A stretch of 64,000 nt of DNA, from NCBI GenBank assembly GCA_000004985.1, contig GG738885.1; one strand, given 5' to 3'. This DNA is from Naegleria gruberi. Lineage: Eukaryota. The position numbers were made by a program, and so were the translations under genes. The notes below the pieces were generated by a model. The model did no database searches and was not told where the DNA came from. It saw only the letters and a program-made list of their open reading frames with translations. Below, piece by piece: positions 31,558 to 54,183 of this stretch; the stretch's first letter is position 1, and the number at the start of each line of letters is the position of its first letter.

Positions 31558-31630
31558 GCCCGTCTAGCTCAGTCGGTAGAGCGCAAGGCTCTTAACCTTG
31601 TGGTCGTGGGTTCGACCCCCACGGTGGGCG
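31558..31630 (+). tRNA. tRNA-Lys (anticodon CTT)
   Basis: gcccgtctagctcagtcggtagagcgcaaggctCTTaaccttgtggtcgtgggttcgacccccacggtgggcg. It folds as a cloverleaf with A box (tagctcagtcggtaga), B box (ggttcgaccc) and a T-run downstream. Confidence 0.9.
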
Positions 31631-31763: not shown

Positions 31764-33271
31764 TTACAATTTGTTGGAATTTTTTTCAACATATTCCTTA
31801 ACATGTTCTCTTGGTGTGAAATAAAGTGGATACTTTTCAGAATCAATATATAATAAGGATTGATCCAATGATGATGGTGGCATTTCATTTCCATTATCGT
31901 GAGATAATTTGAAATGTCTAATTGCATTGATAATTGCAAAATGAATTTCAGTAAGAGCAATTCTTGATCCTGGACATTTTCTAGCACCAACTCCAAATCT
32001 TTATCAAACAATTCATTCGATTATTGTAAATAACAACAGAAATATCCTATACTTACGGAACTGACACATAATTATTGACAGGTGCCAAATCAGATCCCTT
32101 CTCGTGACGTTCAGGAATAAATTCACTACCTCTAGGAATAAACTCATCTTTCAATGTTCCCCATCTTTGCATGGCAATCACAATCGTGTCCTTTGGCACA
32201 TTAAATCCTCCAATTTCAGTATCCTTACTCAATTGTCTTCCCATTGTAAGATAGGAAAATGAATTTAATCTCAAAACTTCTTCAATGAAATTCTTTGTAT
32301 GTTTCAATTTTTTGAATTGTTCCATTGTAATTTCAAGTCCATTTTCTAAAGTTAATTCATCAATTGTTGGTTGACCAAAAACTTCAACTGATTCCTGGAA
32401 AAGTTTTTCTTGATATTCTGAATGTTGAGCTAATCTGTATAAACTATTGTTGACCATTCTGACGGTAATGTCTGTACCGGCTTGTAAGAAGGTGATCATG
32501 ACATTTTCAACTCTTTCTTCTGGATATTCTTGATCTTTGGCTCTTTCTTCTAAAATTTCTAATAATCTTGGCTTTTCGGTTGGATTAGTTTTGAATCTCT
32601 TGATGCAATATCTGCCGTATTCCAATGATTTATCCCAGACATGTTCGAAATGTTTGTATTCTTGAGTTTTGAAATACTTGTAGAGAGGTGGTTTGTTATC
32701 TGAATAATTATTAGAATCGAATAGAACTTCAGAATGAAATCTTACCTAACAAAATGGCCAAATCAAGTCCAACAATTGAATATTTTACAAAATCACGAAG
32801 ATCGAATGGGAATGATTGAACTGTTTCATCAGTCAACTTGACTCCCTATTAATTTTCACCAAAATTCACACTTTCGAATAATACAACAAACAACAACTTA
32901 CAAGGAAAACCTTCAAAACAGCATCAAAGGCATATCTCGAAGTGGCTTCAAAGTTTTTGGCAAATTTGTACTTTTCACTTCCTTCCACTGGTTGCAAATG
33001 TTTAACTAATCTTCTCAACAATTCGCCATTCAATTCCATTATTACTATTATAATTATTACTTTGATGATATGGACATGATGTAAGAATTTCCTTAGATGC
33101 TTTGTTATTTTGCTCGGAAGATGTTTGGAAATATCTCATGTTAACATGAGCTTGCTTATTCATCACCTGTTTGCTCCCGATCATTGAGGATGATAAATTA
33201 GAGAGTAAACATGATGATGAGTGTTTCATCAAGACGACAGCAGCCAACTTGTTATTCTTCTTTAATAGCAT
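31764..33271 (-). CDS. Cytochrome P450, multi-exon (at least 4 exons; 5' end uncertain)
   Basis: Last exon (31764..31997) encodes FGVGARKCPGSRIALTEIHFAI..., the heme-binding FxxGxRxCxG. The preceding exon (~32064..32698) has the I-helix FLQAGTDITV, K-helix EEVLRL and PERH. Upstream exons of ~100 nt lie between GTAAGx donors and AG acceptors (introns ~32699-32745 and 32846-32901). The N-terminal exon(s) are not resolved. Confidence 0.65.
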
Positions 33272-33590
33272 GGTTGGGCTTTCACTTGTTTTTTTGGAGA
33301 ATATTTTGCCGCATCTCTTTTTGGTTGCACTATAGACTTGAAGAAGAGGAATGCGCTCTTAGTGCGCTTGGAGAATGAGGATTTGCGATTGTTTTCAAGT
33401 AAGGAGGATTTGCGATTCGGGGAGGACACTATATTTAAATGAATTGCATAATGTGTATTGAACTAGTTTTACAAAAATTTTTGGAAGTGTACTTTATTAA
33501 TGGTCAGCTTGTTCGCCTGGTTTTTGTGAATCCTCAAACAAAAAGTAACCAACTAGCATATTGAAAATAAATTGTGTGAATATTTTAAAG

Positions 33591-36500
33591 TTAAATGTAA
33601 TACTTACTGGCAAAAACTGGAATGTATGAAAATTTTCCACCAACAATACACAAATATAATTCTGCTGGAATCATACCACCTCCTCTTCTTCTACAATTAA
33701 CTTTACATTTAAAGCTCTTTCTAGGTGCTGGTGGTGTTTTCAAAACTCGACTCACATGAGCAACGATTTGAGGATAGGACTCTGGATGAACAACATCTTC
33801 CCACCTCTCCAAGTTATCGTACAAATCACTTGGATCGTAATTCAATTTGGTTAGGAGTGTTTTGTTCAAACTGATAATTCTTCCACCAGGGAACATGAGA
33901 ATAATACCAAAATCTGATGAATCCATTTCTTGCTTATTTTCCATGAGCATGACCAATTCTTGATATGAATCTTGAATAGCTGTTGGTTTGTTATTCTCTC
34001 CATAGGTTGGTGGTTCATCGTATTGCATTTTAATTATACCCTTAGATGCCAATTCAGAGAAACGATTTCTCAAATTTTCATTGATAGCTGAGAGCATGGC
34101 TGATTCATTGGCCTTTCTCAAATTTTCCTCTTTCAGTCTCTTATTTTCCTCTCTCAAGATTTCAATTTCCTTTTGAGCATCAGTTCCTGGCTCAGTTTCG
34201 TTAGAGGTGGAGAGTCTTTTAGCAGAGTCGTTCAATTTATGTTTCAATAAGACTGTAAAAAATTAATAAGAACAAAACTGGAAGAAATTAAACTTACGTG
34301 AAATTGGGAAATTTTGAGTTAAATACTCAATGTAGGTCATGTTAGCAGTTTCTGGATTCGAATCAAATTGTTTCAAATGACCAATAGATTCTTCAATCAT
34401 TTGTTTAGTGTCATCTCCAATCTGGAGTGATTTAATCATTTCCTCGTTACTCATCTTTATCAATTTTTCGAAAATTTCCTCATCTTGTTTTGAAGAACTA
34501 GCTGGTTTTTGATTGGTATCTTCACAATCTTCTATTTGTACATCGTCATTGTTATTTACATTGCTATTATTTTGAGATCTCATCTTGTCGGCTTGTTGCT
34601 CTTCAGTAGCGTTAGAATGAGAAATTGGCATCATGTGACCCACTTCATTATGAATTTCATTTTCATCCATTTCAACAATTGATGCAAACAGTGGACTTTG
34701 AGGTGAGAATCTCAAAAATTCATCATTGGTAAAATCAATCAGAGGTGAAGCTGCTCCTCCAGGTGAAATTAATTGCTGTTGATGGAGTTGTTGTTGATGT
34801 TGTTGATTTTGAATTTTCAAGTTATTTAGTGCATTCATATGTTGTTGATGTTGATGCAAGAGAGCTTCATCAACATGCAACGAATAGGGTGTTCCAAAAA
34901 GACTCTGATTATTTTGATAATCGTAGGCAGAATTCAAATTATTGCAATGAAGGTAGAATGTATCAACTGGCGTCCTCATTAAAATTTGTGTCAATTGTTG
35001 AATTTCAGGAGGTTGATTGAGAAGGAATGGAAGTGACAATGGATGATTATCTCTGTTAGGGAAAATTACGTTACCTGCAGTGAGCATGGCTCCAGGAGTT
35101 TTTAATTCTGATTCTGTCAATTGAAGAGGTAAATTATTTACAAGATTAGGATTAATCATTTGTTGTTGAGTAGGAGGAATTCTTTGATTGGCTTGACCTT
35201 GAGTAGCTTGTTCTGGTTCAGTTTTTGGTTGAGTTGTTGTTGAAGATGAAGCAGTAGCTGTTGGTTTTTCCTTCTTCTTTTTAGGTGAAGATGCCTTCTT
35301 CTTCTTTTTCTTTTTTTCATTCTTCTCAGTAGTTGCTGTTGCTGTAGAAGATGAAGCAGCATTAATAGTGGTAGCTGTATTATTATTAGTTGATGATGAT
35401 GGTTCAACTGCATTTGATGATGTTTGTGATGATTGTGGTTTTTCAGTAGGAACATCATCCAAATCTTCATCATTATCATCTTCTCCAGATTTCTTTTTTC
35501 TTCCTCTCTTCTTTCCGACTTGATCTTGACATTCCAATCCGTGAGCTAAGCATCTAGAACAAGGTCTCTTGTCTTCACAACAAGCATGTCTAATTTTGGT
35601 GATTGTGAAATTATAATTTTTGATGAAATAATATATGATTATTATAACAAACATTGGATAAACGGTTAAATGGATAAGATGCACAATAAGAAGTGAAACT
35701 TACGCCTTTCTGCAGCTTACACAAGCCAATTTAGCAACTCTTCTAGGTCTCTTCATCATGTTGGACATTTCCTTCTGCATGTTGGCCATATTACTGTTTG
35801 ATGCTTCTTTAGTCTTATCAGAATTATTGGAAGAAGAACCATTTGAATCTGTCTTGCCAGTTATTGTTGAATTATTATTATTTGATGGTGGTACAGGAGG
35901 TGCATCTTGGTCATTCAATGATGAAGAATTAAATTCATTAATTGGCAATTCGTGATGACTAATATTCTTCAATGTATTCAATTTAGATAAATTGTTTAAA
36001 CTTGATGAGGATGGAATTGTTCCACCACTAGCCATTAAACCACCACCAGTAGCTAGTTCCACGAACATGATTAAACGACAATTGTTGATCCATTAAACCA
36101 CCAGAATTAGCAATATTTGTGCTTGCCTGAAGGTGATGTAAATTACTCAATGATGGATGAGAAAGGAGAGAATTGGTATGACTCGTCTGTTGAGAGATAT
36201 TGGATGATGATAAATTATTATTTTGACTTAGATTTGGATAGGATGATGCAGCAGCAGACATTAAGTGATGAAGTTGTTGTTGTTGATTTTGCTGATGAGA
36301 GGATAATAAATTATTAGTTGTTATTGTTGCTCCTCCAGCATTCGTTTGGGATGGTTGCGTTGGCAAATGATTGCCATAGTGATGCTGCTGCTGATGATGT
36401 TGATGTTGTCCTAGTCCGTAATAACCTGCTGTGCCATTCAACAAGGGATGTTGATGATTAGTCAGTAAATTCCCAGAAGAATTGATCAAATGCAAATTAT

Positions 36501-36654
36501 TATAAGATTCCAATCGAGGAGGAAGTACACCTCCACCACTGCTACTACCATTACCACTCAATGGTTGTCCAATAACTCCCACCGATGATGAAGCACTAAA
36601 ATCATTGCCAGGTATCGCTGATGATGAATTATTCATATTGTTGGGATTGTTCAT
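33591..36654 (-). CDS. Zn(II)2Cys6 (Gal4-type) zinc-cluster transcription factor with Q/N/H-rich regions, leucine-zipper-like coiled coil and PAS-like C-terminal region; multi-exon
   Basis: Exon ...KRPRRVAKLACVSCRKA ends at a GTAAGT donor (~35703). Acceptor ...aaaattag at ~35600 then gives AHACCEDKRPCSRCLAHGLECQ, i.e. C-x2-C-x6-C-x6-C-x2-C-x6-C. A further intron (donor after ...NFPIS at ~34290, acceptor ttttacag at ~34248) links to the 33591..34247 ORF (EIEILREENKRLKEENLRK..., then a PAS-like FGIILMFPGGRIISLNKTLLTKLNYDPSDL). The upstream ORF 36028..36654 is offset by +1 in a short overlap (36028-36068). Confidence 0.6.
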
Positions 36655-39959: not shown

Positions 39960-40030
39960 TCGGGTGTGGTATAGTGGTAGCATTCCAGACTGTCACTCTG
40001 GCGACCCGGGTTCAATTCCCGGCACTCGAG
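39960..40030 (+). tRNA. tRNA-Asp (anticodon GTC)
   Basis: tcgggtgtggtatagtggtagcattccagactGTCactctggcgacccgggttcaattcccggcactcgag. U1 as in eukaryotic tRNA-Asp. Anticodon stem ccaga/tctgg. B box ggttcaattcc. Confidence 0.8.
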
Positions 40031-42104: not shown

Positions 42105-42406
42105 TTTATTAAGGCAATCATCATTAACAAAGAATAAAAAGACTACAGCACCACAGGTTCCCAAGTTGTCTCCAACCTCAGTACTGATGTGGCTCGACGA
42201 TGCTTAACTTCTCAAATCGGACGGGATGAGGTGCATTCATCGTGGTATGGCCGTAGCCATTCATAATCATAATACAATGATAATAAGGAATATTAAAAAT
42301 AGCCATGCAATACCTTAAATTGCGAAATATTAACTTCATGCTGTTTTGAAATTGTCTCTTACCTATTATTGAAAAACATGATTGCTGAATCGTACATGAA
42401 TAACAT

Positions 42407-54110: not shown

Positions 54111-54183
54111 GCCCGTCTAGCTCAGTCGGTAGAGCGCAAGGCTCTTAACCTTGTGGTCGTGGGTTCGACCCCCACGGTGGGCG
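54111..54183 (+). tRNA. tRNA-Lys (anticodon CTT), identical duplicate of 31558..31630
   Basis: Same 73-nt sequence. The downstream ~20 nt (tattttaatatttt) is also shared with the first copy. Confidence 0.9.

What the first reader, a model, noticed from the sequence alone, without database searches (positions are those of the whole stretch)
33591..36654. Zn2Cys6 cluster encoded across an intron, in a gene that also carries a leucine-zipper-like coiled coil and a PAS-like C-terminus
The six-Cys Gal4-type motif is only complete after splicing (…ACVSCRKA | AHACCEDKRPCSRCLAHGLEC). Downstream exons add a long Q/N-rich region, a heptad-repeat basic/coiled-coil segment (EIEILREENKRLKEENLRK) and a PAS-like block, an unusual composite transcription factor. 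The upstream Q/H/N-rich ORF (36028..36654) is +1 out of frame over a 40-nt overlap containing a duplicated ggtttaatgg. This suggests either a very short intron or a sequencing indel.
Basis: partly seen in the sequence, partly recalled or inferred. Interest (0 to 1): 0.5.

Follow-up and report, generated by a model that had tools for sequence, protein, structure and literature searches.

The report
Naegleria zinc-cluster, zipper and PAS regulator
This is a real gene of the amoeba Naegleria gruberi for a DNA-binding regulator that joins a "fungal-type" zinc cluster (split by a conserved intron) to a leucine zipper and a PAS domain, a combination already known from fungal metabolic regulators, and the odd frame break near its start is a 2-base deletion in this sequence, not a tiny intron.

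Summary
The window is Naegleria gruberi NEG-M (9 of 10 intronless ORFs match NAEGRDRAFT proteins exactly). On the minus strand, 36654-33497, lies a gene for a Zn2Cys6 + leucine-zipper + PAS transcription factor. The six-Cys cluster is complete only after removing a 114-nt GTAAGT...AG intron (35703-35590). The spliced protein passes Pfam Zn_clus. The N. fowleri ortholog has the same junction, and an intronless homolog has the cluster uninterrupted. A structure model of the N. fowleri ortholog (83-88% identical) shows a 48-residue helix followed by a canonical PAS fold. The proposed 46-nt "very short intron" is refuted. A 98.5%-identical metagenome contig has 2 extra bases there and one continuous exon. 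N. fowleri and a third species have no intron there. A conserved peptide motif (LSFN-x-V-x-G) lies inside the 46 nt. So the window carries a 2-nt deletion, real allele or assembly error. The architecture is not unprecedented: fungal AcuK/AcuM/Rds2/Ert1 are Zn2Cys6+PAS factors, and 71 Zn-cluster proteins were already recorded in N. gruberi. The DBD is homologous to that of Rds2, but the PAS is not specifically ERT1-type. It is an uncharacterised variant of a known kind, of modest interest.

The parts
33497..36654 (-). Whole coding region of the gene, from ATG 36654 to stop TAA 33499-33497. There are 4 exons and 3 introns once the 2-nt frameshift is allowed for. The corrected product is 981 aa.
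   Evidence: model and coordinates. (N. fowleri ortholog XP_044563116.1, 957 aa, with the same three intron positions).
35704..36654 (-). Exon 1: Q/H/N/S-rich N-terminal region plus the first two Cys of the cluster (…RRVAKLACVSCRKA). In the window it is interrupted by a frameshift.
   Evidence: It is a continuous ORF in L001, in N. fowleri and in L003/L004. All other window/L001 indels in this exon are multiples of 3.
36052..36054 (-). Site of the 2-nt deletion. The window reads ACTAG^CTACT where the 98.5%-identical relative reads ACTAGTGCTACT. This causes the +1 frame break.
36053..36098 (-). The 46 nt proposed as a 'very short intron' (GTTTAA…CTAG). It is actually coding sequence for …LMDQQLSFNHVRGTS.
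   Evidence: The motif LSFN[NH]V[RH]G is conserved in L001, N. fowleri and L003 and lies inside this stretch. The donor GTTTAA differs from the GTAAGT seen at all 7 donors read here: three in the window, three in N. fowleri, one in L003.
36090..36102 (-). Direct repeat copy 1, GGTGGTTTAATGG (encodes GGLM).
36032..36044 (-). Direct repeat copy 2, GGTGGTTTAATGG (encodes GGLM).
35590..35703 (-). Intron 1 (114 nt, GTAAGT…TTAG, phase 2). It splits the Zn2Cys6 cluster between Cys2 and Cys3.
   Evidence: The position is conserved in N. fowleri (about 176 nt) and in L003 (44 nt). It is absent from the intronless homolog P0004.
35706..35723 (-). Zn cluster, first part (CVSCRK: Cys1 and Cys2).
35529..35588 (-). 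Zn cluster, second part (HACCEDKRPCSRCLAHGLEC: Cys3 to Cys6).
35490..35516 (-). Basic motif GKKRGRKKK immediately after the cluster. It is invariant across the family and is inferred to be a nuclear-localisation signal and/or an AT-hook-like DNA contact.
   Evidence: K46 R47 G48 R49 K50 K52 invariant in 7 family DBDs. The function is inferred.
34298..35589 (-). Exon 2: rest of the cluster, low-complexity linkers, and conserved mid-blocks (PPEIQQLTQILMRTPVDTFYL…; …NMTYIEYLTQNFPIS).
34253..34297 (-). Intron 2 (45 nt, GTAAGT…ACAG).
   Evidence: The junction NFPIS|LLLKHK is matched by N. fowleri P0002.
33608..34252 (-). Exon 3: leucine zipper plus most of the PAS domain.
34038..34172 (-). Leucine-zipper-like helix (KEIEILREENKRLKEENLRKANESAMLSAINENLRNRFSELASKG).
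   Evidence: Heptad register. AF2 helix 9-56 in the ortholog model. Conserved across the family.
33533..33965 (-). PAS domain (it spans intron 3; the last beta-strand IGYFLFE is in exon 4).
   Evidence: Pfam PAS_3/PAS_9, AF2 topology, Foldseek against PDB.
33553..33607 (-).
   Evidence: The junction PVFA|IGYFLF is matched by P0002 and by P0004/P0005/P0040.
33497..33552 (-). Exon 4 (IGYFLFEDSQKPGEQADH plus the TAA stop).

Best explanation
The locus is a single Naegleria gruberi protein-coding gene on the minus strand with 4 exons and 3 introns. It encodes a sequence-specific transcription factor of about 981 aa.

Shown: an N-terminal Zn2Cys6 binuclear-cluster DNA-binding domain whose coding sequence is split by a position-conserved phase-2 intron; an invariant KKRGRKKK basic tail; long low-complexity linkers; and a C-terminal module made of a leucine zipper of about six heptads followed by a PAS fold.

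Inferred mechanism: the cluster and basic tail contact DNA at a CGG-type site, as in other Zn2Cys6 proteins. The DBD is closest to the Pho7 and Rds2 'RPCxRC' subgroup. The zipper+PAS module makes a parallel dimer. No paralog appeared among the hits, so a homodimer is more likely than an AcuK/AcuM-style heterodimer. The PAS domain may couple activity to a ligand or metabolic signal. The Q/N-rich regions act as activation or interaction regions.

The frame break at 36054-36052 is a 2-nt deletion relative to the ancestral continuous exon 1. It is either an assembly error or a true NEG-M allele. It is not an intron.
For: Organism: 9 of 10 intronless window ORFs are exact NAEGRDRAFT proteins.

Gene model: four GT..AG intervals give one ORF. 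Three of the junctions are reproduced exactly by N. fowleri XP_044563116.1 and its genomic exon map.

Zn_clus: 23.2 bits against a cutoff of 21, obtained only after splicing. P0004 has the cluster uninterrupted in an intronless gene.

PAS and helix: AF2 model with block-mean pLDDT of 72-93 across the PAS fold and the canonical order of two beta-strands, helices, then three beta-strands. Foldseek finds 397 PDB chains at E<=0.001, and the listed top 50 are PAS/LOV domains or constructs carrying one.

Family: exhaustive HMMER finds a small conserved family, P0002 to P0009. P0002, P0004, P0006 and P0040 also carry the cluster.

Constraint: downstream of the frameshift, window versus L001 substitutions are 9 synonymous to 3 non-synonymous, and 3 to 0 in the zipper/PAS exon.

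Frameshift: L001 has +2 nt and a continuous ORF. Every other exon indel is a multiple of 3. The LSFN-x-V-x-G motif inside the 46 nt is conserved in three other taxa. N. fowleri and L003 have no intron there.

DBD affinity: hhalign against Rds2 gives probability 98.4%, E=7e-15. The DBD profile scores 41.5-42.8 bits on Pho7 and a median of 39.8 on Rds2, against 15-28 on Put3, Lac9, Ppr1, Hap1, Gal4 and Leu3.
Against: No transcript or cDNA evidence for N. gruberi itself could be reached. DNA binding, dimerisation and signal sensing are all inferred from domain identity.

The structure model is of the N. fowleri ortholog (83-88% identical, depending on the span compared), not of the window protein. 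Its zipper-to-PAS linker has low confidence.

Pfam PAS_3 is just below its cutoff for this protein.

The zipper lies about 430 residues from the DBD. In Gal4-type proteins the dimerisation coil follows the cluster directly, so the geometry of DNA recognition is unclear.

Only one close comparator (L001) shows the ancestral state at the frameshift.
Confidence: 0.8

Rival explanations
1. The 46-nt interval 36098-36053 is a genuine, very short spliceosomal intron in NEG-M, giving a 965-aa protein. It could also act as a fortuitous cryptic splice that rescues a real 2-nt deletion.
For: It has GT…AG ends. Removing it restores the frame exactly. Its length is in the range of the two confirmed introns of 45 and 55 nt.
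Against: The donor GTTTAA differs from the GTAAGT of all 7 donors read here across three species. The interval encodes a motif conserved at the protein level in L001, N. fowleri and L003. N. fowleri and L003 have a continuous exon there. In the 98.5%-identical L001, removing the same 46 nt would break the frame.
Confidence: 0.07
2. The 2-nt deletion is a true NEG-M allele. The gene then makes an N-terminally truncated factor of 785 aa from ATG 36068 that keeps the DBD, zipper and PAS, or this allele is a null copy.
For: The context (ACTAG^CTACT) is not a homopolymer, so a simple base-calling slip is not the obvious cause. An in-frame ATG at 36068 precedes all functional domains. The region upstream of the break shows 3 synonymous to 7 non-synonymous changes against 9 to 3 downstream, which is compatible with a dispensable N-terminus.
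Against: The other indels in the N-terminal ORF between the window and L001 all preserve the frame. The N-terminal region is retained as coding sequence in N. fowleri and L003. No independent NEG-M sequence was available to confirm the deletion.
Confidence: 0.4
3. The protein is a true member (ortholog) of the fungal ERT1/AcuK/AcuM/Rds2 family. It would regulate gluconeogenesis, respiration or alternative-oxidase genes in Naegleria, either inherited from an early eukaryote or acquired from a fungus.
For: It has the same domain order, with an N-terminal Zn2Cys6 and a C-terminal PAS. The DBD is homologous and shares the signature C-x2-C-[RK]-[RK]-[SA]-H-x2-C-[DE]-x2-RPC-x-RC. A permissive full-length hhalign is collinear from the DBD to the PAS and places the PAS in register.
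Against: Neither this protein nor any protist relative hits the family-specific Pfam model PAS_13. PAS against PAS in hhalign gives probability 0.9%, E=0.058. Exhaustive HMMER with the zipper+PAS exon listed no named fungal protein among its 31 hits, and several of the weaker hits look like bacterial multi-PAS sensor proteins. The DBD profile scores Pho7 as high as Rds2. The score added by everything outside the DBD is only about 14 units. Rds2 has no zipper before its PAS in the alignment.
Confidence: 0.2

Closest known systems
Fungal ERT1/AcuK/AcuM/Rds2/Gsm1 family (also Aod2/Aod5, Rse2/Rse3, Pas2, Cwt1/Zcf11): Zn2Cys6 plus PAS_13 regulators of gluconeogenesis, alternative oxidase and hypoxia
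   Same: N-terminal Zn2Cys6 cluster with the CR-x-x-H…RPC-x-RC signature (hhalign probability 98.4%). C-terminal PAS domain, thought to mediate dimerisation in the fungal proteins (PMC12719309). Collinear domain order.
   Different: The PAS domain does not match Pfam PAS_13 (PF24990) and is not significantly similar in a profile-profile comparison. A leucine zipper directly precedes the PAS here. The protein is about twice as long, with Q/N-rich linkers. No partner paralog was seen. The host is a heterolobosean amoeba, not a fungus. The function is untested.
Schizosaccharomyces pombe Pho7 (PDB 6o19 / 6e33), a Zn2Cys6 DNA-binding domain
   Same: It is the best-scoring solved structure for the DBD, at 41.5-42.8 bits with the family profile and 20 bits with the single sequence. 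It shares RPC-x-RC and a basic stretch after the cluster.
   Different: The similarity covers the DBD only. No zipper or PAS region of the query matched Pho7.
PAS-containing dimeric transcription factors of other DBD classes: aureochrome (bZIP-LOV) and bHLH-PAS (ARNT/HIF, BMAL1/CLOCK)
   Same: A dimerising helix sits next to a PAS/LOV fold in a DNA-binding protein. These PAS domains are among the structural matches, for example BMAL1 PAS-B with target-normalised TM-score 0.82, aureochrome 1a LOV, and HIF-ARNT.
   Different: The DNA-binding domain is of a different class. Here the zipper is not preceded by a bZIP basic region (no Pfam bZIP hit) and lies about 430 residues from the DBD. The LOV-type NCRFL flavin-Cys motif is absent, judged by inspection of the sequence.
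The N. gruberi Zn-cluster expansion (71 Cys6Zn2 proteins; Scazzocchio 2014, PMC5611559)
   Same: This gene is one member of that already-recorded repertoire of 'fungal-type' clusters outside fungi.
   Different: That report gives counts and says the architectures vary and look unlike fungal ones. In the passages read, it does not describe a zipper-PAS member or its resemblance to AcuK/Rds2.

Membership tests
Zn2Cys6 binuclear cluster (Pfam PF00172 Zn_clus) | Six Cys with spacing C-x2-C-x6-C-x5-12-C-x2-C-x6-8-C | tested here: met
   CVSCRKAHACCEDKRPCSRCLAHGLEC after splicing. No unsplit motif exists in the window.
Zn2Cys6 binuclear cluster (Pfam PF00172 Zn_clus) | Score at or above Pfam's gathering cutoff | tested here: met
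   23.2 bits against 21. The orthologs P0002, P0004 and P0006 score 23.6, 24.9 and 22.5 bits.
PAS domain | Pfam PAS-clan model at or above its gathering cutoff | tested here: inconclusive
   Window protein: PAS_3 at 23.5 bits against 25.6. Homologs pass: P0006 on PAS_3 at 25.9 and P0041 on PAS_8 at 22.8 against 21.8.
PAS domain | Five-stranded antiparallel sheet with the PAS order of two beta-strands, helices, then three beta-strands, and similarity to solved PAS structures | tested here: met
   AF2 model of the N. fowleri ortholog, with block-mean pLDDT of 72-93 across the fold. Foldseek against PDB gives 397 hits at E<=0.001, and the listed top 50 are PAS/LOV domains or constructs carrying one.
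ERT1/AcuK/AcuM/Rds2 family | N-terminal Zn2Cys6 domain homologous to that of Rds2 | tested here: met
   hhalign probability 98.4%, E=7e-15. This is not exclusive, because Pho7 scores as high.
ERT1/AcuK/AcuM/Rds2 family | C-terminal PAS_13 (PF24990, 'ERT1/acuK family PAS domain') | tested here: not met
   There is no PAS_13 hit at E<=1 for the window protein or for the protist relatives. Rds2-family proteins score 72-76 bits. PAS against PAS in hhalign gives probability 0.9%.
ERT1/AcuK/AcuM/Rds2 family | Acts as a heterodimer of two paralogs | tested here: inconclusive
   Exhaustive HMMER listed only one NCBI-sourced Naegleria protein among the cluster representatives examined. The library is clustered at 50% identity and carries no names, so a divergent paralog cannot be excluded.
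ERT1/AcuK/AcuM/Rds2 family | Binds CCG-N7-CCG-type sites and activates gluconeogenic or AOX genes | not testable with these tools
   This needs binding and expression experiments. The fungal data are summarised in PMC12719309.
bZIP | Basic DNA-contact region immediately N-terminal to the leucine zipper | tested here: not met
   No Pfam bZIP hit at E<=1. The sequence preceding the zipper is STSNETEPGTDAQ. Only the zipper heptads are present.
Spliceosomal intron (for the 46-nt interval 36098-36053) | GT…AG ends and restoration of the frame | tested here: met
Spliceosomal intron (for the 46-nt interval 36098-36053) | Non-coding, with the intron present (or the interval cleanly absent) at that position in orthologs, and a donor resembling the local consensus | tested here: not met
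   It encodes the conserved LSFN-x-V-x-G motif. The exon is continuous in L001, N. fowleri and L003. The donor is GTTTAA rather than GTAAGT.

The most novel reading that the evidence does not exclude
The Zn2Cys6-PAS architecture is older than fungi. On this reading, the Naegleria/protist zipper-PAS family (also seen in an MMETSP transcript and several metagenomic protist contigs) and the fungal ERT1/AcuK/AcuM family descend from one ancestral metabolic regulator, either vertically from an early eukaryote or through an ancient transfer. A 'fungal-specific' gluconeogenesis/respiration switch would then also operate in a heterolobosean amoeba, including the pathogen N. fowleri.
Probability: 0.2. 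Interest if true: 0.6.

Novelty: new variant of a known kind. Interest (0 to 1): 0.3.

Why it matters
The practical value is annotation. The work gives a corrected four-exon model for an N. gruberi transcription-factor gene, flags a 2-nt frameshift in the reference sequence, and shows that a tempting GT..AG mini-intron is not real.

Biologically, it identifies a small conserved protist family of Zn2Cys6-zipper-PAS factors with an ortholog in the brain-eating amoeba N. fowleri. The family mirrors the fungal AcuK/AcuM/Rds2 architecture. That gives a concrete test case for a question raised by Scazzocchio 2014 and Shelest 2017: are Zn-cluster regulators outside fungi ancient, or were they transferred? 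It also gives a candidate signal-responsive regulator in an organism whose transcription factors are essentially uncharacterised.

It does not overturn anything. Both the domain combination and the presence of Zn clusters in Naegleria were already known.

Tried and rejected
(1) Word-indexed homology searches with the C-terminal 294 aa and with a family profile returned almost nothing: only a same-locus metagenome ORF and two fragments. The exhaustive HMMER search was needed to find the family.

(2) An exact look-up of my 965-aa model found nothing. Look-ups of neighbouring NAEGRDRAFT genes, meant to recover the public gene model for this locus, also found nothing. I therefore do not know how the reference annotation treats the frameshift.

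(3) I searched for independent copies of the frameshift region. Exact look-ups of the 208-aa frameshifted ORF and of a 184-aa exon-3 ORF gave nothing. Two JGI metagenome DNA scans gave zero hits.

(4) The afdb50 fold library was not available, so I could not compare the structure directly with AlphaFold models of AcuK/Rds2.

I used the N. fowleri ortholog instead.

(6) MAFFT alone was ambiguous about aligning the 16-residue 'intron' peptide to N. fowleri. The third species resolved this.

(7) Literature searches for Naegleria with Zn2Cys6 or Zn_clus found nothing directly. One 'binuclear' hit was irrelevant, and de Mendoza 2013 is not held.

(8) I considered a bZIP reading of the 'basic/coiled-coil' segment and rejected it, because there is no basic region and no Pfam hit.

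(9) I first considered a fungal origin for the window (AT-rich, short introns, Zn cluster) and rejected it after the exact NAEGRDRAFT matches.
Full report
**1. What is in the sequence.** The finding lies on the minus strand of an AT-rich window (33% GC). Four GT…AG intervals (46, 114, 45 and 55 nt) link five ORF pieces into one 965-aa reading frame, running from ATG 36654 to a TAA at 33499-33497. No frame of the window contains an unsplit six-Cys motif, and RPC-x-RC occurs only once. Joining 35704 to 35589 produces CVSCRKAHACCEDKRPCSRCLAHGLEC, with the spacing C-x2-C-x6-C-x5-C-x2-C-x6-C. The junction splits an Ala codon as GC|A, so the peptide reads RKA-HACC. The spliced protein hits Pfam Zn_clus at 23.2 bits (cutoff 21) and PAS_3 at 23.5 bits (cutoff 25.6), and nothing else of note. 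In particular it has no bZIP hit and no PAS_13 hit. The best solved-structure matches by sequence are the Zn2Cys6 domains of Pho7 and Put3.

**2. Whose gene it is.** Nine of ten intronless ORFs from across the window are exact matches to Naegleria gruberi NEG-M proteins (NAEGRDRAFT_…) on a 362,555-bp scaffold. An exhaustive HMMER search of 1.84 billion cluster representatives with the zipper+PAS exon found only 31 proteins at E<=0.001. The top hit (E=3e-117, 86% identity) is N. fowleri XP_044563116.1 / FDP41_002223. It is 957 aa long and named only "Zn(2)-C6 fungal-type domain-containing protein". P0003 to P0009 form the rest of a small family drawn from metagenomic, Logan and MMETSP protist sequences. 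The weaker hits I examined include bacterial multi-PAS sensor proteins.

**3. The splice model is corroborated.** The N. fowleri protein reproduces three junctions exactly: KAHACCEDK, NFPISLLLKHK and PVFAIGYFLF. Mapping that protein onto its genomic locus gives exactly three introns at those positions, and every donor is GTAAGT. A third Naegleria-like species (L003/L004) has a 44-nt GTAAGT…AG intron at the same place inside the cluster. The more distant homolog P0004 is encoded by an intronless 1971-nt gene and carries CVHCRRAHACCDDFRPCSRC uninterrupted. The cluster is therefore genuine, and the intron that splits it is conserved in position within the Naegleria clade. Between the window and a 98.5%-identical metagenome contig (L001), substitutions downstream of the frameshift are 9 synonymous to 3 non-synonymous. 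All three substitutions in the zipper/PAS exon are synonymous, which indicates purifying selection.

**4. The frame break is a 2-nt deletion, not a mini-intron.** ORFs 36028-36654 and 35700-36068 overlap by 41 nt in different frames. GGTGGTTTAATGG is duplicated at 36102-36090 and 36044-36032. Removing GTTTAA…CTAG (36098-36053, 46 nt) would restore the frame, and 46 nt is not too short given the gene's 45- and 55-nt introns. Four observations argue against an intron.
- L001 reads ACTAGTGCTACT where the window reads ACTAGCTACT. With those two extra bases, its exon 1 is one continuous ORF from MNNPNN… to …CVSCRKA.
- Every other indel between the two sequences inside exons is a multiple of three: 6, 3, 3, 6 and 3 nt.
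- N. fowleri and L003 have an uninterrupted exon 1.
- The peptide encoded by the 46 nt contains LSFNHVRG. This matches LSFNNVHG in N. fowleri and LSFNNVRG in L003 at the corresponding place upstream of SHH[ED]LPINEF.

In addition, the would-be donor GTTTAA differs from the GTAAGT found at all 7 donors read here. The corrected product is 981 aa. I could not determine whether the deletion is an assembly error or a real NEG-M allele, because no independent NEG-M sequence or transcript was reachable. If it is real, an in-frame ATG at 36068 would still give a 785-aa protein with all three domains.

**5. The zipper and the PAS domain.** In KEIEILREENKRLKEENLRKANESAMLSAINENLRNRFSEL, the best heptad register has A-L-L-K-L-L-L at the d positions and I-N-N-S-N-F at the a positions. 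From established coiled-coil knowledge, Asn at a positions is typical of parallel dimeric zippers. No basic bZIP region precedes the zipper. I ran AlphaFold2 on the C-terminus of the N. fowleri ortholog, which is 88% identical to the window's exon 3 in that alignment, using 10 family sequences. The model has mean pLDDT 76, with block means of 72-93 across the PAS fold. It shows one helix (residues 9-56), a low-confidence linker, an N-cap helix, and then strands 102-106, 111-115, 164-174, 180-191 and 198-207 with intervening helices, which is the PAS topology. Foldseek against the PDB returns 397 chains at E<=0.001. The listed top 50 are PAS/LOV domains or constructs carrying one, including an archaeal HTR-like PAS, NifL, FixL, BMAL1 PAS-B (target-normalised TM-score 0.82), HIF/ARNT and aureochrome LOV.

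**6. How it most likely works.**
- Shown: the protein has a Zn2Cys6 DBD, an invariant KKRGRK-x-K tail directly after it, low-complexity linkers, and a zipper+PAS module.
- Inferred: the cluster and basic tail bind DNA. The zipper+PAS module forms a parallel dimer. This is probably a homodimer, since no paralog appeared, although the 50% clustering of that library leaves the point open. The PAS domain may transmit a ligand or metabolic signal. The Q/N-rich regions mediate activation.
- Unusual relative to Gal4-type proteins: the dimerising helix lies about 430 residues from the DBD rather than directly after it.

**7. Comparison with what is known.** The combination is not unprecedented. Fungal AcuK/AcuM (Rds2/Ert1/Gsm1, Aod2/Aod5, Rse2/Rse3, Pas2, Cwt1/Zcf11) are Zn2Cys6 factors with a C-terminal PAS domain. 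That PAS domain is needed for their function and is thought to mediate heterodimerisation. These factors control gluconeogenesis, alternative oxidase and hypoxia responses (PMC12719309). Pfam has a dedicated model for the family, PAS_13 PF24990 "ERT1/acuK family PAS domain".

I retrieved real Rds2-family sequences (the S. cerevisiae entry P0054 matched my recalled bait at 100%) and compared profiles.
- The DBDs are clearly homologous (hhalign probability 98.4%, E=7e-15). They share the signature C-x2-C-[RK]-[RK]-[SA]-H-x2-C-[DE]-x2-RPC-x-RC.
- The PAS domains align in register but without significance (probability 0.9%, E=0.058). Neither the window protein nor any protist relative hits PAS_13.
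- As a specificity control, the family DBD profile scores 41.5-42.8 bits on Pho7 and a median of 39.8 (maximum 50) on 117 Rds2-family proteins. It scores 15-28 bits on Put3, Lac9, Ppr1, Hap1, Gal4 and Leu3. The DBD therefore belongs to the RPC-x-RC subgroup that includes Rds2, but it is not uniquely Rds2-like.
- A permissive full-length hhalign is collinear from the DBD to the PAS domain but adds only about 14 score units over the DBD alone.

My conclusion is that the protein plausibly works like an AcuK/Rds2-type factor, but membership of that family is not established. One defining feature, PAS_13, was tested and not met.

The presence of Zn clusters in Naegleria is itself already documented. 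Scazzocchio (2014) recorded 71 such proteins in N. gruberi "with a variety of architectures" and left open whether their origin is ancient or by horizontal transfer (PMC5611559). Shelest (2017) notes the same patchy distribution (PMC5415576). I found no paper describing this particular zipper-PAS member.

**8. Verdict.** It is a composite transcription factor, and the frame break is an indel. It is wrong on two points: the mini-intron does not exist, and the architecture is not unusual. This is an uncharacterised protist variant of a known kind of regulator, sitting in a reference sequence with a small frameshift. Interest is modest at 0.3. The most novel reading still open is a common origin with the fungal AcuK/AcuM switch. 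I give that roughly 0.2 probability, and it would be moderately interesting if true.

Noticed in passing
window 42140-42258 (-): A complete 5S rRNA gene (Rfam RF00001, 101.5 bits) sits alone between protein-coding ORFs.
   Followed up: no
window 31558-31630 (+), 54111-54183 (+), 39960-40030 (+): Two tRNA-Lys(CTT) genes with identical Rfam scores lie 22.5 kb apart, with one tRNA-Asp(GTC) between them.
   Followed up: no
L001 1-3654 (ENA ERZ929261, run ERR1078381, PRJEB11402): An environmental metagenome contig is 98.5% identical to N. gruberi NEG-M across this gene. It evidently comes from a second strain of the N. gruberi complex and is useful as an independent check of the reference.
   Followed up: partly
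P0003 (L003 4192-5919); P0042; P0005: Prokaryote-style gene calls on these eukaryotic contigs distort the proteins. P0003 reads through the equivalent of intron 2 in frame and gains a spurious 'RKLFYLCISQFLV'. P0042 starts inside the Zn-cluster intron, and P0005 starts just after the cluster.
   Followed up: partly
L005 1486-3456: The homolog P0004 is intronless. It is flanked by genes with squalene-epoxidase (SE/FAD_binding_3) and class-I aldolase (Glycolytic) Pfam hits. Its source organism is unknown.
   Followed up: no
window 35490-35516 (-): The motif KKRGRK-x-K immediately after the Zn cluster is invariant in all seven family DBDs, including distant members. It looks like a nuclear-localisation signal or an AT-hook-like minor-groove contact.
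   Followed up: no
window 36055-36654 (-) versus 33497-36052 (-): Window/L001 substitutions are 3 synonymous to 7 non-synonymous upstream of the frameshift, against 9 to 3 downstream. The Q/H-rich N-terminus is either weakly constrained or decaying in one lineage.
   Followed up: partly
window 32053-32625 (-): The neighbouring 190-aa ORF contains an F-x-PER-x-like motif (FIPERH), which suggests an exon of a cytochrome P450 gene. This was not tested with any tool.
   Followed up: no
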